The translations under genes were made by a program, and so were the position numbers. A stretch of DNA of 64,000 bases, from assembly GCA_041742075.1 (NCBI GenBank), contig JBGSJJ010000015.1, forward strand, positions 1,132-65,131, in the 5' to 3' direction. The number at the start of each line of letters is the position of its first letter. The stretch's first letter is position 1. The notes under the pieces were generated by a model. That model saw only the letters and a program-made list of their open reading frames with translations, was not told where the DNA came from and did not search any database. Source of the DNA: Minisyncoccia bacterium (GTDB lineage Bacteria > Patescibacteriota > Minisyncoccia > Phycocordibacterales > UBA918). Shown one piece after another: positions 12,197 to 63,000 of this stretch.

Positions 12197-14470
12197 CTAT
12201 TTAGCCACTGTTGCAGCTTCGTCAAACTTTACCGACAAAAGCTTTGATACCCCATCACCTCCCATCGTCACGCCATAGAGTATGCCGGCCCGACTCATTG
12301 TCTCGCGATTGTGCGTAATTAAAATAAGTTGAGACTTTTGGGCTAACGCCTCAATCATGTCACCGTAGCGTCGACTATTAGCCTCATCAAGCGCTGCATC
12401 GGTTTCATCAAGAATAATAAACAGCGGCGGATTGACCTGACTCATAGCAAAAATAAGCGCGATTGAAGTCAGTGCTCGCTCCCCGCCTGAAAGCATCTCG
12501 AGACCGCGCACCCGCTTGTTTGGCAGTTTAACATCAAGCTCAATACCCTCTTCACCTTCCTCCTCCTCAGTCAGGTCAGTTTCTGTATCTTCTTCAAGTA
12601 CTGTCTCGTCTGCTTTTTTTCGTACTTTTGGCTTTACTCGCACCAGGTTAGCTTCCCCGCCACCAAACATAAGTATGAAAAAACGATTGAATTCTGTGCC
12701 GATTTTCTCAATACCAGTTATAAAATACCCACTCAGTTCGGCAGTGAGTTCAGCCATAAGTGTCTCTAGTTTCGTCACCGACTCTTCAAGGTCGGTAATT
12801 TCACGCACTAAAAACTCATCTCGTTCTTTGACTTCTTTGTATTCTTTTTCAATGTCAGCATTTACACCACCGAGTTCCTCTAGGCGAATTTTAATTTTTT
12901 CGAGCTCGCGTCTTCGTTCGTACTGTTTCGTTCTTTCCTCGCTTGCAATGTGCGCCAGGCTTAAAGAAGCACCATCTTGCATGACTTCAAGTTCATAATA
13001 CAGTGAGGCATCGCGACCAAGCAGGGTAACTGCTTCTTGCAGTTCACGCTTAAACTCTTCTCGCTCCCGTTCGAGAACGTTCCGCTCGTGATTTATTCTC
13101 GAGATAACTGCTTCGCATTCTCGCTGTGCTCCCATAACACGGAAAATTTCACGCTCTGCCTCCCGACTCTCAGACTGTTCCGACTCAATTGAAGCTCTCA
13201 GTTTTTTGTAGGCCTCTCTACGCTCTTCTTCTGATTTTTCACACTCGATTATTTGCTTAGCTAGTTCGGCGTGTTCTTTTTGTAACTCATCTAATTCCTT
13301 TTCTTCCGCATTGGTATTAGCGCTGACTGAACCGAGGGCAGTCTGAAGAAACTTCTTACCCAAATGCACCACATCAGACAAAGCTCGCTGAAGTAACGGA
13401 ACTTCAGTACTGATAAGTGAGCGGGTGGCCATATCTTCAAGCGCACTTATAAATCGCTTTACTTCACCCACTGGTATTGGAGCGTCGCTTTCGCTTTGAC
13501 TGACCCGCTCCATCTCGACAATTCTACGCTTGATATAGTCTACCTGCCCTTCAATGTTGCCACTTTTTCGAACCAGTCCTTGTCTTTTTTCTCGCACTTC
13601 TTTTGTCTCGCGCTCAAGCTGAAGCAACTCATCACTTTTAGCATCACGCTCGTGCATCTTGAGTAATTCTTTCGCTTGCGCCAGCTCACTCTCGAGCACT
13701 TCAAGTTGCTTAGTCGGTACCCGTATCTCTTTATCAAGTCTGTCATGATGCCAGGCAATATACGTATCCTCACGCTTGAGGTACTCAGCATAGACAGTAC
13801 CAAGTTCAGCCCGGAGCGAAATAGCTCGCTCAATTTTTTTAATTTGCCGTTCCAAAAATTGAATGTGGGGTGCGACCTCTCGCCTAAGAGACTGTACCTT
13901 TTCTATATTCTCCCTTGTCTTCACAAGCTTCTTATCAGCATCAGCAATCTTGTACTGATATACCTTGAGACCAAGGGCATCTTCGATCATTTCTCGGCGT
14001 TCCTTTGGACCAGCTGAGAGAATACGGTCGGCTTCACCTTGCGAAATAATATGGTGGCCAGTGGTACCAATGTTGGCGGCAGCTAGAAGCTCTTGGACGT
14101 CTTTCAGACGGACTTTTGAACCATTTATCAAGTACTCATTTTGACCATCGCGGTGAACTATACGCTCCACTACAATCTCATCAAAATCAACCCGAAACAC
14201 TCGACTGCGGTTATCGAGTACTACTACCACTGAAGCGCGGTTTGACCTTGAAACTGATTCTGAACCACCAAAAATAAGGTCTTCCCCTTTCTTCCCCCGC
14301 ATTGACTTAAGTGACTGTTCTCCAAGTACAAAGCGAAACGATTCGGCGACGTTACTCTTCCCGGAACCGTTTGGTCCCACTATGGCCGTAATCGGGGCAC
14401 TGAACTCAAGCTCGCCTTTCTTAGCGAATGATTTAAATCCTGAAATAGTAAGGTGCTTGAGGTACATCAA
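12197..14470 (-). CDS. smc: SMC-family chromosome segregation ATPase, short form (757 aa, no recognisable hinge).
   Basis: N-terminal Walker A GPNGSGKSN, extensive coiled coil, C-terminal LSGGERALTSIALIFA...ILDETDAALD signature and Walker B. The rnc-(pilin)-smc order recalls the rnc-smc synteny of Firmicutes. Confidence 0.7.
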   Translation of the reverse strand: MMYLKHLTISGFKSFAKKGELEFSAPITAIVGPNGSGKSNVAESFRFVLGEQSLKSMRGKKGEDLIFGGSESVSRSNRASVVVVLDNRSRVFRVDFDEIVVERIVHRDGQNEYLINGSKVRLKDVQELLAAANIGTTGHHIISQGEADRILSAGPKERREMIEDALGLKVYQYKIADADKKLVKTRENIEKVQSLRREVAPHIQFLERQIKKIERAISLRAELGTVYAEYLKREDTYIAWHHDRLDKEIRVPTKQLEVLESELAQAKELLKMHERDAKSDELLQLERETKEVREKRQGLVRKSGNIEGQVDYIKRRIVEMERVSQSESDAPIPVGEVKRFISALEDMATRSLISTEVPLLQRALSDVVHLGKKFLQTALGSVSANTNAEEKELDELQKEHAELAKQIIECEKSEEERREAYKKLRASIESEQSESREAEREIFRVMGAQRECEAVISRINHERNVLEREREEFKRELQEAVTLLGRDASLYYELEVMQDGASLSLAHIASEERTKQYERRRELEKIKIRLEELGGVNADIEKEYKEVKERDEFLVREITDLEESVTKLETLMAELTAELSGYFITGIEKIGTEFNRFFILMFGGGEANLVRVKPKVRKKADETVLEEDTETDLTEEEEGEEGIELDVKLPNKRVRGLEMLSGGERALTSIALIFAMSQVNPPLFIILDETDAALDEANSRRYGDMIEALAQKSQLILITHNRETMSRAGILYGVTMGGDGVSKLLSVKFDEAATVAK

Positions 14471-14485
14471 GGAGTAGGTTACGTT

Positions 14486-14947
14486 CTAGAAGTTTTCGCA
14501 CGGTATCACAGGCGCAGGGTAACTCGCATCAGCTGCTGGCGCCGAAACATTGAGGCTTTTAACATAACAACTACCAGTTCTTGATTCAAAACGTGCCCTG
14601 AGGGTGTATTCTGATTCGGAGACACTTGGGGTATATGAATACAAGTAGGGCGTCACATTGCGTGGATCTACCGGCATAGCGCCTAATACCCTTTGCTGTA
14701 CCAACCCACCAGTACCACTTGGGTTGGTAAATTCATTGCTAGTAGGGTAATCGCCATTTTTCTCACGATACAGAGCAAGGGCCAATTCGATGGTTTTCAA
14801 GTCTGAGACACGAGCCTTATCACGTGACTGCGTACGGGCGGAGCTTAAATTGGCAAAAACTACAGCGGCCAAGATACCAATAATTGCAATTACTACCAAG
14901 AGTTCAATAAGCGTAAAGCCGTTTTGGTACAAGCGATTATTTTTCAT
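14486..14947 (-). CDS. Type IV pilin / pseudopilin-like protein with a class III prepilin signal. Start taken at MKNNRLYQNG; the ORF track extends it to 15013.
   Basis: GFTLIELLVVIAIIGILAAV N-methylation motif and hydrophobic helix. Confidence 0.75.
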   Translation of the reverse strand: MKNNRLYQNGFTLIELLVVIAIIGILAAVVFANLSSARTQSRDKARVSDLKTIELALALYREKNGDYPTSNEFTNPSGTGGLVQQRVLGAMPVDPRNVTPYLYSYTPSVSESEYTLRARFESRTGSCYVKSLNVSAPAADASYPAPVIPCENF

Positions 14948-15069
14948 ATACCTTCTATAGTAACACGCACACAAACCCCAGGGACACTTCGCGTCCCTGG
15001 GGTTTGTTAACAAACTATCTTATGAAAGTGTGCGCCAAAACACATTTTTCTAAACAAGCAATTACGTAT

Positions 15070-15194
15070 AAAGCAAAGCAATTTTGAATAGAGTGCGCGG
15101 CGCTAACAAAAAATAATGAGAGGCGTACTTAGTGGTACGATGAAAATTATTTTTTGTGTAGCAACAAAGCAATCTGTCAAAATTGCTTTGCTTT
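15070..15194. repeat. 18-nt perfect inverted repeat AAAGCAAAGCAATTTTGA / TCAAAATTGCTTTGCTTT enclosing about 90 nt (with a nested 9-bp hairpin), immediately 3' of the rnc stop.
   Basis: Perfect complementarity read from the sequence. The right arm abuts the rnc stop codon. Confidence 0.6.
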
Positions 15195-15912
15195 ACCAAC
15201 CTTTGGCCTCAATGGCTTTAAGTGCCGCCTCCTGCTCCGCCTCCTGTTTTGCCCTTCCCTTACCTTCGGCTACTTTCGCTTTACCGATAAACACTCCGAC
15301 GGTAAAAATCCGGTCATGGTCAGGTCCTTCCTGTCCCAACGTCTCATAGGTAGGCGTTACGTTAGCATGTTCTTGTGCCAACTCTTGGAAGCGACTCTTC
15401 GGATCTTGCCACAAACGGCGCGCAATAATGTCTTCCGTCTTTTTAAAGAGTTGCTTAGAAATAAAATCCTTGGCTATTTCGTACCCTTGGTCTAAGTACA
15501 AAGCCCCAATAAACGCTTCAAACACATTCGCAAGAATGTACTGCCTAGCTCTACCAGTATCTTTTGCTTCCCCCTTCGACATAAGGAGATATTCGTTTAC
15601 CTCAAGTTTGAGGGCGGCTTCCGAAAGTGAGACGGTGTTTACGAGAGCTGCCCTGATAGCTGTCAATTCCCCTTCCGGTTTATCTGGGTAGGTACGATAC
15701 AGATAATCAGTCACGACTAATTCTAGTACCGCATCGCCAAGAAACTCCAGACGTTCGTTATGGTCTTGCTCTGCTTCACGGTGCTCATTTAGGTATGAAC
15801 GGTGGGTAATCGCAGTAAGCAAGAACGACTTATCAGTGAAGGTATACCCCAAAATAGCCTCAAGCGAGCTTAAGTCAGCGCTAATGTTTCTTTCGCCAAT
15901 GTCTTTTGTCAT
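15193..15912 (-). CDS. rnc: Ribonuclease III.
   Basis: ERLEFLGDAVL signature, C-terminal dsRBD. Confidence 0.92.
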   Translation of the reverse strand: MTKDIGERNISADLSSLEAILGYTFTDKSFLLTAITHRSYLNEHREAEQDHNERLEFLGDAVLELVVTDYLYRTYPDKPEGELTAIRAALVNTVSLSEAALKLEVNEYLLMSKGEAKDTGRARQYILANVFEAFIGALYLDQGYEIAKDFISKQLFKKTEDIIARRLWQDPKSRFQELAQEHANVTPTYETLGQEGPDHDRIFTVGVFIGKAKVAEGKGRAKQEAEQEAALKAIEAKGW

Positions 15913-15958
15913 AGCAAGTAGAGTCGATGCACACTAGCACATTTTTACAAATGTGCCA

Positions 15959-16861
15959 CTAGTTGCTCCCTCGACTCACCAAAATAGTGACTGCTTTTGT
16001 TACAATCGGTAGAATATCCTCATAGAAGTTAAGTTCGAGGATTTCGGACACTTTAAACCAGCGCGCGTCATCAAGACCACCCTTCTTCTCGAGCGTTAGT
16101 TCAGTATAGTCGCCTTTGGCGAGGAAGTAGGTCACTTGCTTGCGGACTTTTCCGAGTTCTGGATGCGACGCCACATATTCGTTCTTACCAAGCTCAGCTT
16201 CAATGGTGACCGTAAGACCAATTTCTTCACGGAGGGCCCGCCGTGCGCCATCTTCGATAGTTTCCTCATCAGCAATTTTACTTTTTGAAAGTGTCCAGTG
16301 ACCAAAAATGTCGTGCACGAGCGCAAAGTACATATTCCCTCCCTCTTGACTGTAGACGACCGCACCTGAGAGTCGCTGAATCGGCATTTGATCAAATGGG
16401 ATATCTCGCTTTGGCTTTTTACCTATCTCGTCTTTACCTGGTTCACCAATCTCCTTATAGACGGCACCTAAAACACCATTGACGAAGCGGCTGCTGTTTT
16501 CGCCACCAAACTGTTTGGCGAGTTCAATTGCTTCATTAATCGCTACCTTAGCCGGTACCTCTTTTCGGTCAGCAAACAACAGCTCATAGAGGCCTAATCT
16601 TAAAATATTCCTATCAACTGGTGAGATACGGTCAATCGGCCACTCAGGAGCAGCTTTCTCTATTACTTGGTCCAGTTCCGGTTGTTTACCCAAAACACCA
16701 TCGAGTAATTTTTCTATAAAAGGGTTGTCGGTCTTGTTGGGAGCAAACTCCTCAACGTTGCGTTCGAGTACTTCACCGACTTTTTTTCGGTCGATATCAT
16801 TTAAATCCCACTCAAAGAGGGTTTGAAGAACGATGGATCTTGATACGTGTCTATTTGCCAT
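15959..16861 (-). CDS. nusB: Fusion protein: N-terminal NusB antitermination domain plus C-terminal NUDIX hydrolase domain.
   Basis: N-terminus RSIVLQTLFEWDL...NILRLGLYELLF...AINEAIELAKQFGGENSSRFVNGVLGAV (NusB). C-terminus GHWTLSKSKIADEETIEDGARRALREEIGL (Nudix box, Ex7RxLxEExGL-like) within a Nudix-fold segment. Confidence 0.8.
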   Translation of the reverse strand: MANRHVSRSIVLQTLFEWDLNDIDRKKVGEVLERNVEEFAPNKTDNPFIEKLLDGVLGKQPELDQVIEKAAPEWPIDRISPVDRNILRLGLYELLFADRKEVPAKVAINEAIELAKQFGGENSSRFVNGVLGAVYKEIGEPGKDEIGKKPKRDIPFDQMPIQRLSGAVVYSQEGGNMYFALVHDIFGHWTLSKSKIADEETIEDGARRALREEIGLTVTIEAELGKNEYVASHPELGKVRKQVTYFLAKGDYTELTLEKKGGLDDARWFKVSEILELNFYEDILPIVTKAVTILVSRGSN

Positions 16862-16952
16862 AAAAATGTACTAACTGCTACTGTCTATCAGTATACAACC
16901 TATTTAAACAGCAAACACCAAGCATGGCTCGGTGTTTGGGGATACTGGGTTA

Positions 16953-17219
16953 TTACTTAGCTTCGGTAGGATTGTCTGGTGTACCAAGTTGAGACTTAAT
17001 TGCTTCTCGCTTCGCTTGCATACGCGCTTCCCTGGCTTCCTTCACTGCTGTGAGATTCATTACTTGTTTACCGTTGTAAAAACCACAACTAAGGCACATG
17101 TGGTGTGGTCGGTGATGCGCCTTACAGTTTGAACAAACAGCCATTTCTGGCGCAGTAAGAGCGTGGTGTGAACGGCGGTTCTTGGTGTGAGACCGCGTAT
17201 GTCGCATTCGGATTACCAT
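16953..17219 (-). CDS. rpmF: 50S ribosomal protein L32.
   Basis: RHTRSHTKNRRSHHALTAPEMAVCSNCKAHHRPHHMC matches bL32. Confidence 0.85.
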   Translation of the reverse strand: MVIRMRHTRSHTKNRRSHHALTAPEMAVCSNCKAHHRPHHMCLSCGFYNGKQVMNLTAVKEAREARMQAKREAIKSQLGTPDNPTEAK

Positions 17220-17289
17220 AATGGGCCAAACTATAGCAAATGTGGGTAAAAAAGCAAGCCTGCTTAGTAGATAGGCTCAAATAAGCTAT

Positions 17290-17730
17290 TTCGGGCCCAA
17301 AAGAAAAAGACCTCGGGAATCCGGGCCTTTACTACCCCTACTTCTGGGGCAGAGTACCGAGCGAACTCGGCTTGGTATGTCACGGGCCTTCGGCCACGTT
17401 TTGATAGTTTTTGGTCATTTTGAACCCATCCTCTTTTTTTTGCGATCAAGGTCCTTAAAGCGATTGCACTGCTCAAAGCTAGGTGCTGGCTGTGGCAGTC
17501 TCACTGCTGGATCGGTAGGGCAAGCGCCACAGCGCACCCTTACAGCGGGCTGTTTTTCGGCATTTCCCCCGAAAGAACCAGGGAGACCGACCGGCGGTGG
17601 CAGGACAGCGAAAGCAACAAAGTGAGGGCAAGTGCTCTCTGAATTAGGCTTACACGGAACCTTCCTTGACTTTAGAAGGTCAGTCACGACAGGGTCATTT
17701 ACCCTGAGTATAGCTAAACGCAAGACTTTT
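17290..17730. ncRNA. GC-rich noncoding gap, probably a structured RNA. RNase P RNA-like motifs are seen on the plus strand; the identity, strand and ends are unresolved.
   Basis: 570-bp gap between rpmF and rnhB with no plausible ORF and local GC near 58%. Plus-strand motifs: GGGAAUCCGGGCC (CR-I-like), GGGGCAGAG, GGGCCUUCGGCC (UUCG tetraloop), AGCGCACC...GCGGGCUG (P13/14-like), GCAACAAAG, CACGACAG. The minus strand ends in a hairpin followed by a T-tract near 17300. Confidence 0.25.
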
Positions 17731-17787
17731 CTCCCTTATCTTCACGTTTCTTGATTACTTCTTGTAATCAATCTTACTCTACTCCGG

Positions 17788-18453
17788 CTATATATTTTTG
17801 CAATAGCTGACCCGGTGGATATCTGTACAGCCATACTTTTTTATGGCCTGACGGTGGGCCGTCGTGCCATACCCTTTATGTACCCCAAGTGCATATTTCG
17901 AGTACTCTGGACGCTTCCCGACTCGCACCATATACCGGTCTCTGGTCACTTTTGCCATGATGGATGCCAGCCCAATTACCTTCTCTTTACTATCACCCTT
18001 AATTATTGTTTCTTGATGCACAAACTCTTTCGGTGCCCTTAGTCCCCCATCGAGCTTCACTAGCACCTCTTCCACCCCCATCTCTGCACCCATGCTTCCA
18101 GCTCGTTTCCCTAGGCCTTTCCTAGGGAAACTCCCTAGGAAAGGCCTAGGTTCAATTACTTTATAGAGGGCACGAGACATGGCCCTGGTGACAGACGGGA
18201 CGATACCAATCTGGTCGATTACTTTGGCAGACACCATTACTACGACATAATCGAGAGTACCTTCCCGCTTCAACATTTCTGCTTGTTTAAAAATTACTTC
18301 CCGCTTTAGCTCTGAAAGCTGCTTCGAATCATTCACTCCGGGTATAAGCGCCCAATCAAAATCACTTGGTACGAGCACTGCCCCAACCGCGACGGGTCCA
18401 GCCAAAGGCCCGCGCCCCGCTTCGTCTATCCCGATGAGCCATTTTTGATTCAT
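17788..18453 (-). CDS. rnhB: Ribonuclease HII, carrying an insertion of about 25 aa relative to E. coli RnhB that is encoded by a 41-nt perfect palindrome.
   Basis: GIDEAGRGPLAGPV...DSKQLS...KGDS...ASIMAKVTRD RNase HII motifs. Confidence 0.9.
   Translation of the reverse strand: MNQKWLIGIDEAGRGPLAGPVAVGAVLVPSDFDWALIPGVNDSKQLSELKREVIFKQAEMLKREGTLDYVVVMVSAKVIDQIGIVPSVTRAMSRALYKVIEPRPFLGSFPRKGLGKRAGSMGAEMGVEEVLVKLDGGLRAPKEFVHQETIIKGDSKEKVIGLASIMAKVTRDRYMVRVGKRPEYSKYALGVHKGYGTTAHRQAIKKYGCTDIHRVSYCKNI
18130..18170. repeat. 41-nt perfect palindrome CCTAGGCCTTTCCTAGGGA-aac-TCCCTAGGAAAGGCCTAGG lying in frame inside rnhB.
   Basis: 19-bp perfect arms. Encodes FPRKGLGKRAG within an insertion loop. Confidence 0.8.
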
Positions 18454-18537
18454 AGACTAAAGTATAGCAAAGATTGACAAATGCATTGAATATGTCATTA
18501 TTAAAACTGGCAAACGAACCTCAACAGGAGTTTGAGT

Positions 18538-18786
18538 ATGTCTGACCTCAGATTGGATCAAGAGAAAACTGCCCGAGAATTGGCGGACGAAGATTTCGCC
18601 TTGAACTACAAGTTCTATTCTATGATGATAGGGATCTTTCCTGTCATAGTGTCCGGCGTATCTTTTGGTGGTGCGGCCAGTGTAGGTGCCTTATTGGTGT
18701 TTAGTCTTTGCGCATACATATTATACCTACTAATTGTCGCCATCCGTTCCCTGTATCGTCTTATGCTCAGTTTCGTACCTCGCTAA
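18538..18786 (+). CDS. Hypothetical small membrane protein.
   Basis: caggag RBS 7 nt upstream of the ATG. Two predicted TM helices. Confidence 0.4.
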   Translation: MSDLRLDQEKTARELADEDFALNYKFYSMMIGIFPVIVSGVSFGGAASVGALLVFSLCAYILYLLIVAIRSLYRLMLSFVPR

Positions 18787-26743: not shown

Positions 26744-29545
26744 TTAGGCTAATTCTTTTACGGCCTTCATTATCGCCATCTTCACCGCCTCTGCTTCGTC
26801 GGTATAGGTACCGTCGATAGCTGAAGTAAGCGCTACTATCGCCTTCTCAAGTTGTACTGAAGTAATCTTTGCAGATTCTGCTTCAAGCATTTCTGAGACA
26901 GCTACTCGTTCACCTTTTCGTGAGCGATATACGGCATCAAGGTCAGATGCTGCATCAGCGAGCGCTACCATTGGTCGGTTAGAGATCATCGCGAAGGCTG
27001 CAACCACGTTTCCTGTTACCAGTGCTTCAGCGAGTGAACCACTCGTGGTTGGGGTTACGTCTGTCTCAACAGCTACAGATTCTCCTTCGTTTAGGTCGCC
27101 AAGAAGGGCTTCCATTCGAGAGAGGTTGAGTACGATCCAACCATCTTCAGTTGGGAAAGTAACTTTCGCTACTCGTACTACACCATCAAGCTTTTGTGCA
27201 CGCTTCTCTAGTGAGTTTTCTGTGTGCATGAGGTATCGCATAGCGTCACTTGAAAGAAGAGCCTTTTGTGCGTGCGCTCGGTTTTCGAGTTCAGACATTT
27301 CATTTTCTTCTTCTGTAAGGGCCTGAGTGTAGGCAGCTTGGTACCCAATCACCGCTGGAGTAGCAGATTCTGCTACTGGGAGATTTTCTGGTACTACGTT
27401 CTTTACTGGTGCTGCTGTTGCTTGTGCAAAGAGGATAGCTGAAGTTGGGAGTTCTGCACTAATGTCAGTTACTGTACTAGCGTCAGTGTAACTTCGAGCT
27501 GGGAACGCCCCTGGAAGACTTACTCCAGCAAACGTGTCGCGACGAATCACTAGTAGGTAGGCAACAAAGGCAGACCAAAGTGCGAGAAGTGCGTAGAAGA
27601 TAAATGTAAGGGTTGGTCCAGCTTCAAAACCTGTGTATGGCACTTGCGTAAGCGCAATACCAGCTACCAGTGGTTGATTTCGCTCTTCAGTTACTGTTAC
27701 AGCTGATTTAGCGACATCTACTGAAACTTTACAAGTTCGTTCTCGACTTCCTTTACTGGCAACGAGTGTGTAGGTAGTGTCCTTGGTTGGCTTTACGGTA
27801 ATACTTCCGTCATAGTAGTCACTTCGTTCACTACTCTTGTATTCGTTTGTATCAAGAAGTTCTTTCTTGAAACTATCTACGAGAGTCACTCGAGTTGCCC
27901 TTGATGTTTCCCAAGTAATCTTCACTGATTCACCAGCTTTGATAGACTTGTCAGAAATCTTGAGCTCACACTTCGGTGAAGAAGAACCTCCTCCGCCACC
28001 TCCGCCACCGTCTTCAGCTTGAATTGAAACTGGACAACTTCGTTCTGAGGTAGCGTTCTTAATAGTAAGGTTGTAGGTAATGTCGTCATTAACTTGTACC
28101 ACCCGGTTTCCATTGTTTGCTACAGCACCAATACCTTGGTCGATAGATGCGCTGGTTACTCGGTCATTATAGGTCCAAGCGAGCGTGACACTGTCACCTT
28201 CACGAACTGAACTGTCAGAAGTAGTAAAGGTTACGTCACTACAAGTAAGTGGTTCTGGTGTGTTTGGTACTGTTACCTTAGTTGAACAAGATACAGTTCC
28301 GCCTTCGCCAACTGCTGTTAGGGTGTAGGTCTTTGTAGAAGTAGTATTTACAGTCTTTGAACCATTCTTGTCTACTGCACCAACTCCTTCATTTATAGTA
28401 ACGGTATCAGCGTTCTTGGTAGTCCAAGCAAGCGCTACATCACCACCACCAACTGGAAGCTCATCTGGTGTACCATCAAGCGTACATTCTGGTTCAGGTA
28501 CTTCTTCTTCGATAATTTCATCAAGTGCGGCACAAAGTGGCTTAAGACTATTTGGTGAAGATGTGTCTGGATAGACAGCGTGTACACCAATAGCTGTAGT
28601 AATCACTTGCGATACTGACAATGAATCATTGACTTGAGTTTGTACTGAAGCTTCACGTACGTTGTCAGCAAGGTCAGCTGAAGCGTTAGAAGTTGCTACT
28701 GTGGTTGCTCCGTTCTTTAGAACGAGCTTCCACTGTTCGTTTGGCTGAGAAACATTGACACGGTCGTTGTACCCGTCCCAACTTCCTAGAGTTACTTTGT
28801 AGTTTCCGACTGGTAGCGCAACTGACTTTTCTGAAGTTACACTTTCACCTTGACTCTTATCACTTCGGATTTTGCGATCGTCAGACGTGAAGTCAATAAT
28901 TGTTCGTCCAGCCTGTGGGGCAAACGGACAATGGTCAGGTGTAGGTTCTTCTGGTTTCTTCGTAACAACTACTGATTTAGTACACTGAACTGTTCCGCCA
29001 GGACCAGTCGCTGTCAAAATAAAGTTAGTTGGTTGCGTAACAGTCTCTGTACGATTGTTATTTAGAGCAACGTTACCAATCGCATTGTTGAAAGATGCAG
29101 TGTCTGCATTCTTAGTTGTCCAGGTAAGGACAACTGGACCACCTCCTTCTGGTACTGAAGTCTTGTCAACTTCAAGTGTACATTCAGGTGCATGCACAAC
29201 TGGTGGCACTTTTACCGTTACCTTAGTTGAACACGTAAGTGTGTCGTGACGACCTTCCTTGTGCATGTGAGCAGTATAGGTAGTCGTTTCAGTAGGCTTT
29301 ACGATTGCAAAACCATCACGAGCAAATTGCTTGTTAGGAATCTTATCGATAGTGACATATGAAATGTCTGAGTATGGTGCATTCCACACAAGCTTTACCT
29401 CTTCACCAGCAAAAACTTCGCTTGGTGTAGCGGTAAGACCCTTGCAACTCCAAGCCTCTACTGCTGGTACTGCAACAGAGTTTACTGTTGCTACCACAAA
29501 AAAGAGGGCGAAAGCGATGCTGTAAATTCGAGTAATGTTGTTCAT
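26744..29545 (-). CDS. Large surface protein (933 aa): signal peptide, about five tandem Ig-like domains of about 100 aa, an internal LPXTG-like sorting signal (VPYTG, TM helix, RRD), then a 270-aa C-terminal cytoplasmic domain.
   Basis: Repeated (E/K)CTL...W(T/N)(T/A)KNADT...G.V......TY.LTA.G.GGTV.C pattern. GGGGGGGG linker. QVPYTGFEAGPTLTFIFYALLALWSAFVAYLLVIRRD. Adjacent to the sortase gene. Confidence 0.6.
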   Translation of the reverse strand: MNNITRIYSIAFALFFVVATVNSVAVPAVEAWSCKGLTATPSEVFAGEEVKLVWNAPYSDISYVTIDKIPNKQFARDGFAIVKPTETTTYTAHMHKEGRHDTLTCSTKVTVKVPPVVHAPECTLEVDKTSVPEGGGPVVLTWTTKNADTASFNNAIGNVALNNNRTETVTQPTNFILTATGPGGTVQCTKSVVVTKKPEEPTPDHCPFAPQAGRTIIDFTSDDRKIRSDKSQGESVTSEKSVALPVGNYKVTLGSWDGYNDRVNVSQPNEQWKLVLKNGATTVATSNASADLADNVREASVQTQVNDSLSVSQVITTAIGVHAVYPDTSSPNSLKPLCAALDEIIEEEVPEPECTLDGTPDELPVGGGDVALAWTTKNADTVTINEGVGAVDKNGSKTVNTTSTKTYTLTAVGEGGTVSCSTKVTVPNTPEPLTCSDVTFTTSDSSVREGDSVTLAWTYNDRVTSASIDQGIGAVANNGNRVVQVNDDITYNLTIKNATSERSCPVSIQAEDGGGGGGGGSSSPKCELKISDKSIKAGESVKITWETSRATRVTLVDSFKKELLDTNEYKSSERSDYYDGSITVKPTKDTTYTLVASKGSRERTCKVSVDVAKSAVTVTEERNQPLVAGIALTQVPYTGFEAGPTLTFIFYALLALWSAFVAYLLVIRRDTFAGVSLPGAFPARSYTDASTVTDISAELPTSAILFAQATAAPVKNVVPENLPVAESATPAVIGYQAAYTQALTEEENEMSELENRAHAQKALLSSDAMRYLMHTENSLEKRAQKLDGVVRVAKVTFPTEDGWIVLNLSRMEALLGDLNEGESVAVETDVTPTTSGSLAEALVTGNVVAAFAMISNRPMVALADAASDLDAVYRSRKGERVAVSEMLEAESAKITSVQLEKAIVALTSAIDGTYTDEAEAVKMAIMKAVKELA

Positions 29546-57018: not shown

Positions 57019-60000
57019 CTAGATGGCTCCCCCGCCGCCGCCACCCCCGCCCGTGGCCTGGTGGTAGACCCTGACTTCGATACCATCGAGCTGTAGGTCT
57101 GCAATGCTCGAGAGCACCCGGACCCGGAGGGTGGCGTCACTAAACTCGGCTGGCGTCCATGAGTGGCCCCAGGCATCGGTTGGGCCACCGAGCGTATAGA
57201 CTGCATCAGTGTTAGCTAGCGTTGGGGTGAGTTTGGTACTCGTGTAGTTTGAACCAGTGTTCCAAGATAGGTCAACCGCAATCGTCCCGGCTTGGTTTGA
57301 GTAGCGACTATCAAGCTTTACTTCGATACCGACAATCGTATTCGTGACCGGTATCGCAAAACCAAAACCGTTAAAGACATGGGTAGTTGCGCTTGGTGCT
57401 TGGGCGCGGGTGTTGTCTGAAACAAGCGCATTGCCCCCGTTTGTCCAACCACCGCTCTGGGCTGAGGGCCTAAGGAAGTTTGGGTTAGGTGCAATATTTT
57501 CTCCATCAGTTTCTTGGCCGGCTTCCCCGCCTCCTTCCTCTCCCCCGCCCGTTTGTACGCCCTGGCCGGCTGGTGGAGCACCACCAATAGACGCACTACT
57601 GCCTCCTCCACTACTACCAGTATTAGACTCACGGTTATGGTAGACCTGCGAGACTGCTCCACTCACGTTCGCTGAACCTATAATGTCTGCTGGGTAGAGC
57701 TTAAGCACTAAGGCTTCTCGCTTGTCGATATCGACGGTGTCACTCGTTACAATGAAGTTTTGCGTGGTTGAAGAAATAAACGAGGTGCTGAAGACAATTG
57801 TCCCCTGGGTCGCCGATGAAGTTGCAAACACACCGGTGCCCCCTACCTGCACGTCTCCTCCATCAAGCAGGCTATTGCTGTTGATGTCACGATAGAGTCT
57901 CAGGTCGGGAATAGAGCTGGTACTCACTCGATTGCTTATATCAGAGACTCGTAGTGTGAGTGAACTAATGGTGGTCGTGGCTGACGGCGTCAGCGAGAAA
58001 GCAAAGATTGCCACATCATTTTGGTTTTGAAAGCTAAAGACGTTACTCGGTTGCCCATCTTCATGTTCACCTAAGACGAGGTCGGGCACTGCGACATACG
58101 ACCAGTTAGTGGTATTGCCGCTATCAACGCAGCCGGTGAGGCAGCTAATCGGCGTCGTCGTAACACTAATGTTGCGTGAGTCCTGCACGTTCAAGTACGA
58201 AACCGTTGCGGTGGCGTACGGGTCAATGTAGTACTGCGTACCTGGGCTGGTCGAACGGAGAGAAAGTAGATTACCGGCGGTGCCGTTTAGCGTAAGCGTG
58301 CCTCTGGTTTCAAACTCATCACCAGCTCCAAACGTGAGGGTTGAAGAGCTGGTGACATTCTTGGTAAGGTTGAAAAAGCTCGTGGTAGCGTTGTTCTGTA
58401 TGGTCTGAGTGGTACCAGTAAGATAGACCGTACTTGTGGCAGCTCTAAAATTGCCATTAATAGTAAAGTCCCCACTGACACCAAGTGAGCTGGAAGCGAT
58501 TAAGGTCGCTCCACTATTTATGGTTAGGTTGGTAGTCGACGCATTCATTGGTAACGTGGTAGTACCGGCACTCGCTATGATAGTACCGAGGTCGCTAGTG
58601 CCGGTGAGAGTACCCGCGAGTTCCCCTGATACCCTGTACTCGTTAATCTCGACACCTGATACCCCGATAACGTATAAATTCGTACCGTCGGGATTAAAAG
58701 CAAGGCCGGTAGGAGCACCTTCTTGACTTGATACACTGAGGTTTCTTACGAAACTACCCGTCGAAACGTCCCAAGGAGTAGCAAGTGTGTACTTCACAAC
58801 CCTAGCAAACTCAACCCCTGAGACATAAAGTTCTGTGCCCAAAGCATTAAAGGCTATGCCCGATGGATATGAGTCCTGCGCCGCCACCGAGAAGGTATCA
58901 ACAAACGAACCGGTTGATACGTCCCACGGGGTACTGAGGTTGTATTCGTTAATGTCGAAGCCAGCTTCTCCAGAAACATACAACTTAGTACCATCGGGAT
59001 TAAAGGCAAGGTCCATTGGAAAAGTTTCCTGCGCCGCCACCGAGAAAGTATCAACAAACGAACCGGTTGATACGTCCCACGGGGTACTGAGGTTGTATTC
59101 GTTTATATCATTACCGAAATCACCGAGCACATAAAGTTTAGTTCCATTGGGATTGAAAGCTAAGCCGGACGGAGCAGTGTCTTGCCCCGCTACCGAGAAA
59201 GTATCAACAAACGAACCAGTTGATACGTCCCATGGGGTACTGAGGTTGTATTCAGTGATGTCGTCACCCGAAGAACCTATGACATATAACTTTGTACCGT
59301 CGGAATTAAATTCTAGGCCCATAGGAGAAGTCTCTTGTCCAGACACACTGAAAGTGTCCACAGGAGTTACTTGGTTACTGAAATACCCTTGCCCGCTTAG
59401 ATTTAGCGTACCACCATTATCACTGAAAGTTCCAGAGTTGGTCAGGTCACCGGTCGTGAGTGCTGTAGCGGGTGCGGTGAAGGAACCACCAGAAGCAATC
59501 GTAAGTTCGGAGGTCGAAGCGACGGTACTGCTTGAAACATATGAACCAATAATAGTAACACTACCGAGACTGGAAGAGCCCGTTAACGTACCATCGAGTC
59601 CCCTACCTGTTCCCGTGAGAAAAGCGAACTGTCCCGAGGTGGCGTTGTAGATACCGTCGTTGTCAAAAGAGCCACTGAAGGTAGACGAGGCAGCTGCCCT
59701 TAGGCTCGTCCCCGGCCAAACGTAGAAGGTTTGGTTACCTCGAATGTTGAGCTGGTCTTGGTTGGTACTAGTCGAAGTAGTAGTAGCACTGAACTGCAAG
59801 TCACTGTCGTTTTCAAAATCATACAAGGCAAATGGCGTCATGGTCATTTGGCTCGTAGTGGCACTTCTCGCAATCACGTGATCTTTATAGAGATTGAGTC
59901 CCGAGACACTGTTAGTTGAGGACGCTTGGTAGACCAAGGCGGCACGAACCGTGGTCGAGGCGTCTACGAAGAAGGTGTAGGTGGTCGAAGAGAGAAGCGA

Positions 60001-63000
60001 AGTCGTGTCCACACTGAAACTAAAAGCTCCGTTCGCGCTCACCGTGGTGGTTGACTGCGTACTTGGAGTAGTCGTACCGACAGCCAGTGTAATCGTATGG
60101 ACGCCAGTCCGCGGTGTCACACCCTGATCGTTGTACAGTGTTCCAGATAGAAGTATGGTCGGGGCAGCTGGTGGCGCGCCGATAGTCCACTGCGGGGTCT
60201 CTAGGTATTCGGTTAGAGCGGTGACACTACTGGTACCAAACCCCACCCGGAAGTCGTAGACTTCCCCATTGCTGGCGGTTCCGGTCGCGACCAAGCTCCA
60301 CTCAAGCTCGGTGTAGTCATCAGTTGAAATAGCAATACTGTCGGTCGGGTTTTCGTCGTCCTGAATTCGACCTTGATCGAAGTCACCAGTATTCTTACCA
60401 GTCGGTGCACTAAGTTGCGCCGTGGTTGACGCCCCCGAGGCAGCAATGTTGCTTGAGGCTCCAAACTCAATCGATGATGGAATCGTGTAGTAGACATGAG
60501 CCACAATCTGGTCAACGCGGGCAATCCGGTTAGCTCCGTTTGCTACTCCTTGCACCGCAAAGGCAAAGCCAAAGTTACCATTATTGAAGTCGGCTGGGGT
60601 CCAGGTCGTATTCCACAACGCCGTACTACTTCCATACTGCATCTGCCGATCACCAGTACCCCAGTTCGTGGTCACCGCTATGTTTGAACCCACGAGCGCA
60701 CCGTTGCGCATTAACTGCGCCGTGTTGTCACGAATTTCTCCCGCCGAACCCCCAAATCTGTGTCGCTCGATATGGACCTCAATACCAGTAATAGTAGCGG
60801 ACGTCGGAATATTGAGTCCGCCACTGGTTGACGCCACCAGATAGTTTGAAGCAGTGGTACTCGAAACCGTTAATTGCGCAAATACATTGTCCGAGCTGCT
60901 GCTATTGCCTGGATTAGTCCACGCAATCGAGCCAGCGCTGGTATTGTTGTTCCCTGTAAGCGCTGTTTGATAACTTGCTCGAACAGTGTTGGTGGTTGGT
61001 GTCTCAGCTGGTGGAATAGCGATAGTATAAGAAACCCACTGTTCAGTCGCACTGGTAAAGGTGGCTGGGTCGTGGGTACTTGACGCCGTAATGTAACGAT
61101 GAGCGGTGTTTGAGTTGGCACCATTGGTGGTACTGGCAAACTGCGTTATAAGCCCACTATATCCAGACGGTGCCACTGTCGCGGCGGTGTTGGTGCCAGC
61201 TGAAGTGTCCCCCGAACGAGTCACAATCGATAAGTAGTCACGGGCCCCGCTGGTAACTAAGTTTGGTGGATTGCTGTTTGTACCACTACCGTCAGCCGAG
61301 AAAGCGACGGGTGTACCGGCGCCACTGATGCGATACACAATATGCGTACTTTCTTCCGAAGTACCACTGGTGATGGTGAGTACTGGCGAGGTCGTGGTCG
61401 CTATCTGCCAATACACTGCTCCCGTTGTAAGATCACCGTTATAATCAACAGCAAACCTCTCCCAACCCGCTGGTTGATTAAGTGTGCTGGTACCAGCTGC
61501 TGTGTCGAGACTTATGAGTACCATCAGCAAATCCCCTACTTGTACCCCTGACGGCATAGTAATAACGTGCGCGGTTGTGTTTACATTTGACCGACCGCTT
61601 GACGTAGCTTGGATAACCGGAAATGCATCGTCAACCCCGACCGACTTCCACACGCTTGAAGAAGAAATCTTGTATTGGAGACCGAGTTGACTTACTGTGC
61701 TCGTGCTCGTGAGATCAACCAAGGTACGGAGGCGCACGTTTTGATTTACATCAGCGGTGATACTGGTATCTTGTGCTGCTTTCCAGGTTGCTGTCGTTTC
61801 TGAGCCGTCATCGTTACGGAAGCGAAAGCCTTCTTGTGCAATTGAAGACGGGGCACTATACGTACCGATGGTAAACGAAGCACTCGTATCATACGAGCTT
61901 AACGCTGTACTACTCGACTGACCAAGTCTGACTTGATAGACCTCACTTGTCGTCGCGGTACCGGTCGCCATAATACTCCACTCAAACTCGGAGTAGTCGC
62001 TCTCGGAAATAGTCACGGTGTCAGCTGGGTTCTCGTCGTCCTGGATTCGTCCAACGTCAAAGTCACTCGTACTCTTTCCGGACGGGGCGGTGAGCTTAGC
62101 GGTAGTGTTTTCTCCGGACGCAGTAATATTGCTACTTGGCGCCAGCACGATTGGTGGCGGGAGCGTGTAGTAGACCTTGAGGTAGAGATGGTCAACATTC
62201 CCAATTCGGTTGGCGCCTGAAGCTACTCCTTTGGCTGAGAACATCAAACCAAAGTCACTAGCGTTTATTTCGGCCGGTGTCCAGGTGGTTCCCCAGAGCG
62301 CTGTGCTACTTCCGTAGTTTATGTACTGCGGATTATTAAAGATAGTTCCCGCTGCTAAGTTACTACCAATCACACTGCCCGCTTTAACTAGTCGAACTGA
62401 TGAATCTTGAATTTCTCCTGTAGTACCACCATTTGAATACGTTTTTACAGCTGCCTCAATACCTACAATAGTTGCTTGCAGTGGTATAGAAAAACCAAAA
62501 GCATTAGCTTCAAGGTAGCGTGAACTAGTGACACCTGACGCAGTGAAACTAGCATAGCTCGCATCTTCATCAATAATGTTTGTCACACCACTCCAGGCGA
62601 GAGTGCCAAATGAATTGTCTTCACTTCCGACCGGATTGCTATCGAACTGGGTTCGAAGCGAACCTTTAGTTGGTGTCTCTTTCGGCGGAATCGCCATTGT
62701 GTACGTTATCCAAAATGAAGCGAGCGCAGGTACTGACTCCGGCTGTTCACTCACAGCCTCAAGATACCGATGCATAGTCTCGACACCATGTTCACCATTT
62801 ACACCATCTGCTTGTTTAAGAATAAGACCACTGTAGCCTGCTGATGGTCTCCGCAAAAGACCTACTGCACCAGAAGCGTCATAGGACCTTGCTGCTATCC
62901 ATAAATACTTTCTCTGTCCATCAGTCGTAAGCAGTGGAAAATCAGGATCAGCAGTCGTGCCTTCAAGAGCCTGCAGTACCGGATCACCCGCACCACTCAC

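What the first reader, a model, noticed from the sequence alone, without database searches (positions are those of the whole stretch)
15959..16861. NusB fused to a NUDIX hydrolase domain
The N-terminal 140 aa are an unmistakable NusB. The C-terminal 150 aa carry a Nudix fold with a Nudix box, EETIEDGARRALREEIGL. A covalent fusion of the antitermination factor with a pyrophosphohydrolase suggests coupling of the transcription elongation complex to hydrolysis of a nucleotide-derived substrate. Candidates are 5' cap-like NAD or ppp-RNA ends as in RppH/NudC, or (p)ppGpp or Ap4A housekeeping. This architecture is not a standard bacterial one.
Basis: partly seen in the sequence, partly recalled or inferred. 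Interest (0 to 1): 0.6.

Follow-up and report, generated by a model that had tools for sequence, protein, structure and literature searches.

The report
NusB fused to degenerate Ap4A-hydrolase-like domain
The gene really does join the transcription factor NusB to a Nudix domain, and this is the normal form of NusB in a large group of ultra-small (CPR) bacteria, but here the Nudix half has lost a key catalytic residue and probably binds a nucleotide instead of cutting it.

Summary
Observation confirmed. Window 15959..16861 (minus strand) is one uninterrupted 300-aa ORF. Residues 7-136 are NusB (Pfam E 1.4e-38; TIGR01951 above its cutoff). Residues 167-282 are NUDIX (E 1e-11). A disordered linker joins the two domains.

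The fusion is not an artefact. It recurs at full length in 80 of 80 fetched species genomes of Patescibacteria (511 relatives found), in the same rpmF-nusB::nudix-rnc gene order, down to about 30% identity.

The Nudix half belongs to the Ap4A/ApnA-hydrolase (NUDT2-like) subfamily. Its Nudix box is degenerate: S194 replaces the first Gly and A209 replaces the Glu of 'RE'. A209 is the same change as the engineered, inactive human NUDT2 E58A mutant.

Across 130 family members only 39 keep all three box glutamates, with at least 19 switches on a tree. The equivalents of the NUDT2 substrate-contact residues (K193, Y229, K241, Y280) are kept in 81-90 of the 91 degenerate members, and dN/dS is about 0.04-0.05.

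Best reading: a genuine NusB carrying a nucleotide-polyphosphate-binding pseudo-hydrolase module. I found no paper describing the fusion. The function remains inferred.

The parts
15959..16861 (-). Complete nusB::nudix ORF, 300 aa plus the stop codon
   Evidence: ORF list and sequence. Both Pfam domains lie in one frame. An identical protein is in public collections (P0001).
16442..16861 (-). NusB domain, aa 1-140, all helical
   Evidence: PF01029 E 1.4e-38 and TIGR01951 at 135.5 bits, above the 88.35 cutoff. PDB NusB sequences match at E 3e-21 to 8e-15. The model has seven helices and gives TM 0.85-0.87 (normalised to the target) against the NusB-S10 and NusB-NusE-RNA structures 3imq and 3r2d.
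16367..16441 (-). Flexible linker, aa 141-165, with a conserved GEPGKDE motif followed by a K/R cluster (GKKPKR)
   Evidence: pLDDT is below 50 for aa 142-150 and pTM is only 0.61 although the mean pLDDT is 90. Mean pairwise identity is 63% among 79 species, and the length varies in distant members.
15962..16366 (-). Nudix-fold domain, aa 166-300, of the ApnA-hydrolase (NUDT2 / aq_158 / Ndx1 / CT771) type
   Evidence: PF00293 E 1e-11. Foldseek best hit is 3i7u, the Aquifex Ap4A hydrolase, with target TM 0.88-0.90 and rmsd 1.9-2.2 A. The family profile against PDB gives 3i7u 6e-21, CT771 6e-16, Ndx1 3.5e-14 and NUDT2 5e-13.
16214..16282 (-). Degenerate Nudix box, aa 194-216, SKIADEETIEDGARRALREEIGL. 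S194 stands where the consensus has Gly and A209 (codon GCC at 16235..16237) where it has the Glu of 'RE'.
   Evidence: Direct reading and a pattern scan. A209 aligns to NUDT2 E58. E58A is inactive.
16953..17219 (-). rpmF (ribosomal protein L32), the gene upstream on the same strand
   Evidence: ORF. Found at the same relative position in 76 of 80 related loci. Called as PF01783 in L083 and L088.
15193..15912 (-). rnc (RNase III), 46 nt downstream on the same strand
   Evidence: ORF. Found at the same relative position in 78 of 80 related loci. Ribonuclease_3 and dsrm domains are called in L088.

Best explanation
This is the organism's NusB, the BoxA-binding partner of S10 in antitermination. 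In one large lineage of Patescibacteria (Kaiserbacteria, Adlerbacteria and other Paceibacteria) it carries, on a flexible linker of about 25 residues, a domain derived from an Ap4A/ApnA hydrolase of the NUDT2 type.

In this genome the Nudix domain has lost the metal-binding Glu of the 'RE' dipeptide (A209) and the first Gly of the box (S194). It keeps the lysines and aromatic residues that hold the polyphosphate and the adenine ring in Ap4A hydrolases.

I therefore read it as a pseudo-hydrolase. It would be a module that binds an adenine-nucleotide polyphosphate and brings that ligand to the NusB-S10-BoxA complex without cleaving it, or while cleaving it only very slowly. The ligand could be free ApnA or ATP-type molecules, or the 5' polyphosphate or Np4-capped end of the nascent transcript.

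Shown here: the fusion, NusB orthology, the ApnA-hydrolase ancestry, loss of the catalytic residue, retention of the binding residues, and purifying selection on the domain. Inferred: that the ligand is still bound, what the ligand is, and that binding modulates rRNA antitermination or processing.
For: - Single ORF with both domains.
- NusB orthology. TIGR01951 scores above its cutoff. The fold matches NusB-S10 complexes. No second NusB lies in the 64-kb window. The fusion sits in the same rpmF-nusB-rnc slot where a related lineage has an unfused 144-aa NusB (L083).
- Conservation of the fusion. 80 of 80 fetched loci are full length out of 511 relatives. About 57 representatives of 50%-identity clusters, at 32-58% identity, are full length. 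The same synteny holds in a distant member, P0240/L088.
- Subfamily. Sequence-profile and fold matches are to Ap4A/Ap6A hydrolases.
- Catalytic loss. A209 aligns to NUDT2 E58. The PDB chains of the engineered E58A mutant read LRATQEE. E58A releases no phosphate (PMC8616924). The RExxEE motif binds the required metal (PMC5526541).
- Family pattern. Only 39 of 130 members keep the three box Glu, with at least 19 state switches and at least 48 residue changes at the E16 position on a neighbour-joining tree. Even at 80% identity or more, 49 of 120 are canonical and 71 are not.
- Binding site kept. The NUDT2 contacts K42, Y82, K89 and F128 (PMC4734340) align to K193, Y229, K241 and Y280. In the 91 members that lack the full glutamate triad these are kept in 90, 85, 81 and 89 respectively.
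- The domain is under purifying selection. Mean identity is 71% against 81% for NusB, with no stops in 79 species. dN/dS is about 0.04-0.05, including in pairs that both lack the Glu.
- Precedent. The Nudix domain fused to the TRPM2 channel binds its ligand but is inactive because of Nudix-box substitutions, while ancient TRPM2 channels had enzyme activity that was lost in early vertebrates (PMC4974056; PMC6461439).
Against: - No biochemical data exist for any member.
- Some Nudix enzymes tolerate non-canonical boxes or use a base outside the box, so residual or altered activity cannot be excluded. E212, E213, E200 and R208 are still present here.
- About 30% of family members keep a perfect box and may be true enzymes, so the ancestral and perhaps main role could be catalytic.
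- The conserved Trp, Tyr and Lys residues could be conserved partly for fold stability and not for ligand contact. I could not inspect the model coordinates.
- dS is close to saturation (about 1.8) and the Nudix dN/dS rests on only 7-12 pairs.
- Nothing here shows that the Nudix domain talks to NusB function. The model gives no fixed interdomain contact (pTM 0.61).
Confidence: 0.55

Rival explanations
1. Active hydrolase tethered to the antitermination complex. The domain would cleave Ap4A-type dinucleotides, or remove 5' phosphates or Np4 caps from nascent RNA near BoxA, as NUDT2 and RppH do.
For: The domain belongs to the ApnA-hydrolase subfamily, and NUDT2 also dephosphorylates ppp-RNA. 28 of 79 species and 9 of 57 distant representatives keep a perfect box. 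E200, R208, E212, E213 and G215 are retained in the window protein. The neighbouring genes rnc and rnhB and the nearby RNase R-like gene give an RNA-processing context.
Against: The window protein has Ala at the position whose E-to-A change inactivates NUDT2, and it also lacks the first Gly. The catalytic positions change freely, with at least 19 switches, while the rest of the domain stays constrained. The RppH and NudC NCBIfam models score 12-18 bits against cutoffs of 118-158.
Confidence: 0.15
2. A purely structural or protein-interaction module. The Nudix fold would serve as an extra subunit-like surface in the rRNA antitermination complex, with no small-molecule ligand. The analogy is the inositol monophosphatase SuhB, which is part of the E. 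coli complex.
For: SuhB, which has an enzyme fold, is an integral component of the E. coli rRNA antitermination complex (PMC6614797 and PMC6614801). The catalytic residues of the Nudix domain are dispensable in most members while the domain is under purifying selection. The domain is acidic, with net charge -6 here and a family mean of -8, which argues against general RNA binding.
Against: The best-conserved positions are exactly the equivalents of the phosphate-contacting and adenine-stacking residues of Ap4A hydrolases. That pattern is more simply explained by a retained ligand pocket. No partner was identified. I could not check whether SuhB is present or absent in these genomes.
Confidence: 0.15
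3. A fusion with no functional coupling. Two neighbouring housekeeping genes merged, and the Nudix part is slowly decaying or acts independently of NusB.
For: The linker is disordered and no interdomain packing is predicted. The catalytic motif has decayed repeatedly. Related lineages manage with an unfused NusB of 144-152 aa.
Against: The fusion persists from about 30% to 100% identity with stable length and synteny. There were no stop codons or frameshifts in 79 species. dN/dS is about 0.04-0.05. The apparent Nudix-only representatives proved to be a frameshifted contig and a contig-end fragment, so I found no free-standing or re-split version.
Confidence: 0.1
4. An artefact: two genes joined by a sequencing or assembly error, or by a missed stop codon.
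For: None found.
Against: The ORF is continuous. The same architecture appears in hundreds of independent assemblies.
Confidence: 0.01

Closest known systems
NusB (E. coli, Aquifex, Thermotoga, Mycobacterium; PF01029 / TIGR01951)
   Same: The N-terminal 140 aa score above the equivalog cutoff, have the all-helical NusB fold (target TM 0.85-0.87 to the NusB-S10 and NusB-NusE-RNA structures) and carry the conserved VPxKVAINEAIELAKxFG...FVNGVL core.
   Different: Classical NusB is a single-domain protein of about 140 aa. This one has a 160-aa extension made of a linker and a Nudix domain. Binding to S10 and to BoxA was not tested.
Asymmetric Ap4A/ApnA hydrolases of the Nudix superfamily (human NUDT2, Aquifex aq_158, T. 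thermophilus Ndx1, Chlamydia CT771)
   Same: These are the best sequence-profile and fold matches. The W-T-x-P/S-K-G motif is shared. The equivalents of the NUDT2 substrate contacts K42, Y82, K89 and F128 are conserved.
   Different: The Nudix box is degenerate in the window protein: Gly to Ser, and the 'RE' Glu to Ala, which equals the inactive NUDT2 E58A. The domain is fused to NusB and not free-standing. The catalytic glutamates are not conserved across the fusion family.
NUDT9-homology domain of the TRPM2 channel (a fused Nudix domain that became a ligand sensor)
   Same: A Nudix domain covalently fused to a non-enzyme host protein. Nudix-box substitutions abolish hydrolysis while ligand binding is kept. 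Ancient TRPM2 channels had enzyme activity that was later lost, so active and inactive versions occur in different lineages (PMC4974056; PMC6461439).
   Different: It belongs to a different Nudix subfamily (ADP-ribose pyrophosphatase), a different host protein (an ion channel) and a different kingdom. The comparison is an analogy of logic, not homology of the fusion.
RsmB/Sun, a NusB-like N-terminal domain fused to a 16S rRNA m5C967 methyltransferase
   Same: It is a precedent for a NusB-fold domain covalently joined to an enzyme-fold domain that acts on rRNA. The RsmB models hit the NusB half at E 1e-17 to 5e-5.
   Different: Those scores are far below the RsmB cutoffs (61 bits against 319), there is no methyltransferase domain, and the partner domain here is a Nudix fold.
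SuhB in the E. coli rRNA antitermination complex
   Same: A protein with an enzyme fold acts as a component of the Nus-factor complex (PMC6614797 and PMC6614801).
   Different: It is a separate polypeptide with a different fold (inositol monophosphatase). No evidence here places the Nudix domain in an equivalent position.

Membership tests
NusB (TIGR01951 / PF01029) | Sequence profile score above the curated cutoff | tested here: met
   TIGR01951 scores 135.5 bits against a cutoff of 88.35. PF01029 scores 132.7 bits against 23.1.
NusB (TIGR01951 / PF01029) | All-helical NusB fold | tested here: met
   The model has seven helices over aa 4-138, with block pLDDT 83-98 (mostly above 90). Target TM is 0.85-0.87 with rmsd 1.7-2.0 A to 3imq, 3r2d and 4eya.
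NusB (TIGR01951 / PF01029) | It is the genome's nusB orthologue: conserved position and no paralogue | tested here: inconclusive
   The rpmF-nusB-rnc slot is shared with an unfused NusB in a related lineage. No second NusB lies in the 64-kb window. The rest of the genome could not be searched.
NusB (TIGR01951 / PF01029) | Binds S10 (NusE) and BoxA RNA | not testable with these tools
   There is no rRNA leader in the window and no complex prediction tool was available.
Nudix superfamily (PF00293) | Profile score above the gathering threshold, and the alpha/beta/alpha Nudix fold | tested here: met
   PF00293 scores 45.4 bits against 21.1. Fold matches reach target TM 0.90.
Nudix hydrolases (catalytically competent) | Intact Nudix box Gx5Ex7REUxEExGU, in which the RExxEE glutamates bind the metal | tested here: not met
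   The box reads S194...E200...R208-A209-L-R-E212-E213-I-G215-L, so the first Gly and the 'RE' Glu are replaced. The role of the motif is taken from PMC5526541.
Nudix hydrolases (catalytically competent) | Pyrophosphohydrolase activity | not testable with these tools
   This needs an enzyme assay. The equivalent NUDT2 E58A mutant is inactive.
Ap4A/ApnA hydrolase subfamily (NUDT2-like) | Closest relatives by sequence profile and by fold | tested here: met
   Profile E-values are 6e-21 (aq_158), 6e-16 (CT771), 3.5e-14 (Ndx1) and 5e-13 (NUDT2). The top Foldseek hits are the same proteins.
Ap4A/ApnA hydrolase subfamily (NUDT2-like) | Phosphate-contacting Lys and Tyr residues and adenine-stacking aromatic residues (NUDT2 K42, Y82, K89, F128) | tested here: met
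   They align to K193, Y229, K241 and Y280 (residue roles from PMC4734340). They are conserved in 81-90 of the 91 members lacking the full glutamate triad and in 36-39 of the 39 canonical members. The correspondence rests on sequence alignment and was not checked on coordinates.
Ap4A/ApnA hydrolase subfamily (NUDT2-like) | Catalytic Glu equivalent to NUDT2 E58 | tested here: not met
   The window protein has A209 there. The PDB E58A chains read LRATQEE and the window protein reads RRALREE.
   The RppH models score 11.8-13.3 bits against cutoffs of 118-139. NudC scores 18.1 bits against 158. The only extra domain in the ORF is NusB.

The most novel reading that the evidence does not exclude
In a major clade of CPR bacteria, NusB is a ligand-gated or 5'-end-capturing antitermination factor. 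Its Ap4A-hydrolase-derived pseudo-enzyme domain would sense dinucleoside-polyphosphate alarmones, or grip the 5' polyphosphate or Np4A-capped end of the nascent pre-rRNA. That would couple stress-nucleotide or cap status directly to rRNA antitermination and RNase III processing. The family would contain both enzyme and sensor versions that have interconverted many times.
Probability: 0.2. Interest if true: 0.75.

Novelty: new variant of a known kind. Interest (0 to 1): 0.5.

Why it matters
NusB is one of the most conserved and best-studied bacterial transcription factors, and it is normally a bare RNA-binding domain of about 140 residues. Here a whole clade of reduced-genome bacteria has kept an Ap4A-hydrolase-type domain attached to it, over deep divergence and under purifying selection, while letting the catalytic residues drift.

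If the domain is a ligand or 5'-end sensor, it would be a direct link between the Nus antitermination machinery and dinucleoside-polyphosphate or RNA-cap biology. The physiological targets of Ap4A are still debated. It would also be a bacterial example of a Nudix enzyme turning into a sensor, as in TRPM2.

In practice, the natural mix of canonical and degenerate boxes among close relatives gives ready-made active and inactive pairs for experiments. For annotation, these proteins are currently labelled only 'NusB', or occasionally '8-oxo-dGTP diphosphatase'. Both labels miss the architecture.

Tried and rejected
- Split-gene versions. The representatives that looked like Nudix alone (P0145, P0184) were artefacts: a frameshifted 1-kb contig that still encodes the NusB part, and a contig-end fragment. 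I therefore have no evidence for a free-standing precursor.
- Literature. Full-text searches for NusB with Nudix, NusB with Candidate Phyla Radiation, and Nudix with Patescibacteria found nothing that describes the fusion. The CT771 paper (PMC3956076) is not held.
- AlphaFold database search, intended to give the taxonomic spread. The library was unavailable.
- rRNA leader or BoxA in the window. Rfam finds only one tRNA.
- Promoter and terminator scan of 14400..18600. The counts are no higher than in shuffled sequence, and nothing separates rpmF, nusB::nudix and rnc. This is compatible with co-transcription but does not prove it.
- The 10-bp hairpin between the nusB::nudix stop and the rnc start. 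It is not conserved in related loci, where the spacer ranges from 6 to 378 nt.
- General RNA binding by the Nudix domain. I consider it unlikely, because the domain is acidic, with net charge -6 here and a family mean of -8.
- A second NusB or Nudix gene in the window. None found.
- Names of distant members. Cluster look-ups gave almost no taxonomy.

Full report
**1. The observation**

Window 15959..16861 on the minus strand is one ORF of 300 codons, from ATG to TAG with no interruption.
- Pfam finds NusB at residues 7-136 (E 1.4e-38) and NUDIX at residues 167-282 (E 1e-11). Both are well above their gathering scores.
- The NCBIfam equivalog for NusB, TIGR01951, scores 135.5 bits against a cutoff of 88.35.
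- The fusion is real and not a local error. A protein search returned more than 120 clusters at 80-100% identity, all about 300 aa and all carrying both Pfam domains.
- A scan of one genome per species found 511 relatives. The 80 loci that were fetched all encode the full-length protein. From 79 of them I extracted intact coding sequences with no stop codon or frameshift.

**2. Where it occurs**

All named records are Patescibacteria (CPR): Kaiserbacteria, Adlerbacteria, Nomurabacteria, Paceibacteria and similar. The window looks like housekeeping DNA of such a genome. It carries rpoB, an RNase R/II-like gene, smc, a type IV pilin-like gene, rnc, rpmF, rnhB, dnaE, gyrB and pheT.

An exhaustive search of representatives of 50%-identity clusters gave 151 hits at E of 1e-30 or better. 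About 57 of them are full-length fusions at 32-58% identity.

The gene order rnhB-rpmF-nusB::nudix-rnc-(pilin)-smc, all on one strand, is present in 76-78 of 80 loci. The core rpmF-nusB::nudix-rnc is also found in a distant member at about 30% identity (L088).

A related lineage has an unfused 144-aa NusB in the same rpmF-nusB-rnc slot (L083). Another has an unfused 152-aa NusB elsewhere (L084). The Nudix domain was therefore added to the resident nusB of one lineage, and the fusion protein is most likely that lineage's only NusB. No second NusB or Nudix gene lies in this window, but I could not search the rest of the genome.

Two representatives that looked like Nudix-only genes turned out to be a frameshifted contig and a contig-end fragment.

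**3. Anatomy**

The AlphaFold model, built on 71 sequences, has mean pLDDT 90.4.
- A seven-helix NusB domain spans aa 4-138.
- The segment 142-150 is disordered (pLDDT below 50).
- An alpha/beta/alpha Nudix domain spans aa 161-298.
- pTM is only 0.61, so no fixed packing between the domains is predicted.

The NusB half superposes on the NusB-S10 and NusB-NusE-RNA structures with target TM 0.85-0.87, and it matches PDB NusB sequences at E 3e-21 to 8e-15.

The Nudix half is closest to the Aquifex Ap4A hydrolase (3i7u, target TM 0.88-0.90, rmsd about 2 A). Next come CT771, the Ap6A hydrolase Ndx1, the MutT1-type diadenosine polyphosphatases, and the human and C. elegans Ap4A hydrolases. A profile built from the Nudix halves of 36 diverse fusion proteins gives the same ranking by sequence: aq_158 6e-21, CT771 6e-16, Ndx1 3.5e-14, NUDT2 5e-13.

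**4. The Nudix box is degenerate**

Aligned to Gx5Ex7REUxEExGU, residues 194-216 read S-KIADE-E-TIEDGAR-R-A-L-R-E-E-I-G-L. The first Gly is Ser (S194), and the Glu of 'RE' is Ala (A209, codon GCC at 16235..16237).

The RExxEE motif binds the essential metal (PMC5526541). In the profile alignment A209 falls on human NUDT2 E58. The PDB chains of the engineered E58A mutant read LRATQEE. That mutant is used as the catalytically dead control and releases no phosphate from ppp-RNA or pppGpA (PMC8616924). So the window protein naturally carries the substitution that inactivates its closest characterised relative.

**5. The family pattern**

Conservation of the catalytic box:

| Set | Size | Fully canonical box (GEREEEG) | Other states |
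|---|---|---|---|
| Clusters at 80% identity or more | 120 | 49 | 46 SERAEEG like the window; the rest have G, C, S or A at the 'RE' position |
| Distant full-length representatives | 57 | 9 | the 'RE' Glu is present in only 14 |
| Combined set on a neighbour-joining tree | 130 | 39 keep all three box Glu | at least 19 switches of that state; at least 48 residue changes at the 'RE' position |

The rest of the domain is constrained.
- Mean pairwise identity among 79 species is 71% for the Nudix domain, 81% for NusB and 63% for the linker.
- Nei-Gojobori dN/dS is about 0.04 for the Nudix domain.
- It is about 0.05 in pairs that both lack the Glu.
- dS is near saturation and only 7-12 pairs were usable, so these ratios are rough.

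The best-conserved Nudix positions are G166, D184, W189, T190, K193, Y229, K241, Y245, W268, Y280 and D282. Four of them align to residues reported to hold the P1 phosphate and stack the adenine ring in human Ap4A hydrolase (PMC4734340; alignment):

| NUDT2 residue | Window residue | Kept among the 91 members lacking the full Glu triad |
|---|---|---|
| K42 | K193 | 90 |
| Y82 | Y229 | 85 |
| K89 | K241 | 81 |
| F128 | Y280 | 89 |

The ligand pocket is therefore conserved whether or not the catalytic residues are.

**6. Interpretation**

The simplest account is a genuine NusB that carries an ApnA-hydrolase-derived module. The conserved property of that module is binding, not hydrolysis. In this genome it is very probably inactive or strongly impaired.

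The ligand is most likely an adenine-nucleotide polyphosphate. That could be free ApnA or ATP-type molecules. It could also be the 5' polyphosphate or Np4-capped end of a transcript, because NUDT2 acts on ppp-RNA and NusB-S10 sits on BoxA near the 5' end of pre-rRNA (established knowledge of Nus factors; abstracts). General RNA binding is unlikely, because the domain is acidic, with net charge -6.

The TRPM2 NUDT9-homology domain is a close precedent in logic. It is a fused Nudix domain that binds its ligand but is inactive because of box substitutions, while ancient TRPM2 channels had enzyme activity that was lost in early vertebrates (PMC4974056; PMC6461439).

Rival readings, each scored separately in the report:
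- An active tethered hydrolase. This is possible for the members with a canonical box.
- A ligand-free structural module, in the manner of SuhB.
- A fusion with no functional coupling.

**7. Novelty and score**

The architecture is already in public databases, named simply NusB. I found no paper that describes it. It is the normal NusB of a large CPR clade, so it is not a rarity of this window.

What this analysis adds:
- the assignment of the Nudix half to the ApnA-hydrolase subfamily;
- the finding that catalytic residues are repeatedly lost while the pocket is kept;
- the equivalence of A209 to the inactive NUDT2 E58A mutant.

I rate it a new variant of known kinds (NusB with an accessory domain; a Nudix pseudo-enzyme) with interest 0.5. 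The anatomy and evolution are well supported. The function is inferred only.

Noticed in passing
window ~15935..15958 (minus strand), between the nusB::nudix stop and the rnc start: A perfect 10-bp hairpin with a 4-nt loop (-15 kcal/mol, z = -2.0 against shuffles) lies immediately after the stop codon and about 25 nt before the RNase III start codon. It is not conserved in related loci.
   Followed up: partly
L006, L010, L014, L028, L049 (spacer between nusB::nudix and rnc): In several related genomes the nusB-rnc spacer has grown to 200-380 nt and folds into long, very stable stems (MFE -70 to -118 kcal/mol). In other genomes the spacer is only 6-40 nt. A short motif UAGUG[GCA]UA[GC]UGU recurs at or just after the stop codon in many loci.
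   Followed up: no
window 57019..63930 (-) and 26744..29545 (-): Two very large ORFs, 2303 aa and 933 aa, have no Pfam hit at E of 1e-5 or better.
   Followed up: no
window 14486..15013 (-): A 175-aa ORF with a type IV pilin-like N-terminus (FTLIELLVVIAIIGILAA) sits between rnc and smc. Its position is kept in only 44 of 80 related loci, so this slot is variable.
   Followed up: partly
window 16214..16282 (aa 194 and 209) and homologues: The Gly-to-Ser change at the first box position and the Glu-to-Ala change at the 'RE' position co-occur strongly among close relatives. 55 of 120 clusters have both (SERA...), 49 have neither (GERE...), and mixed states are rare. This suggests a coupled change in one subclade.
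   Followed up: partly
P0192 (a distant fused homologue, JGI): One fused family member is annotated by its source as '8-oxo-dGTP diphosphatase', while the others are annotated as NusB. Public annotation of this architecture is inconsistent.
   Followed up: no
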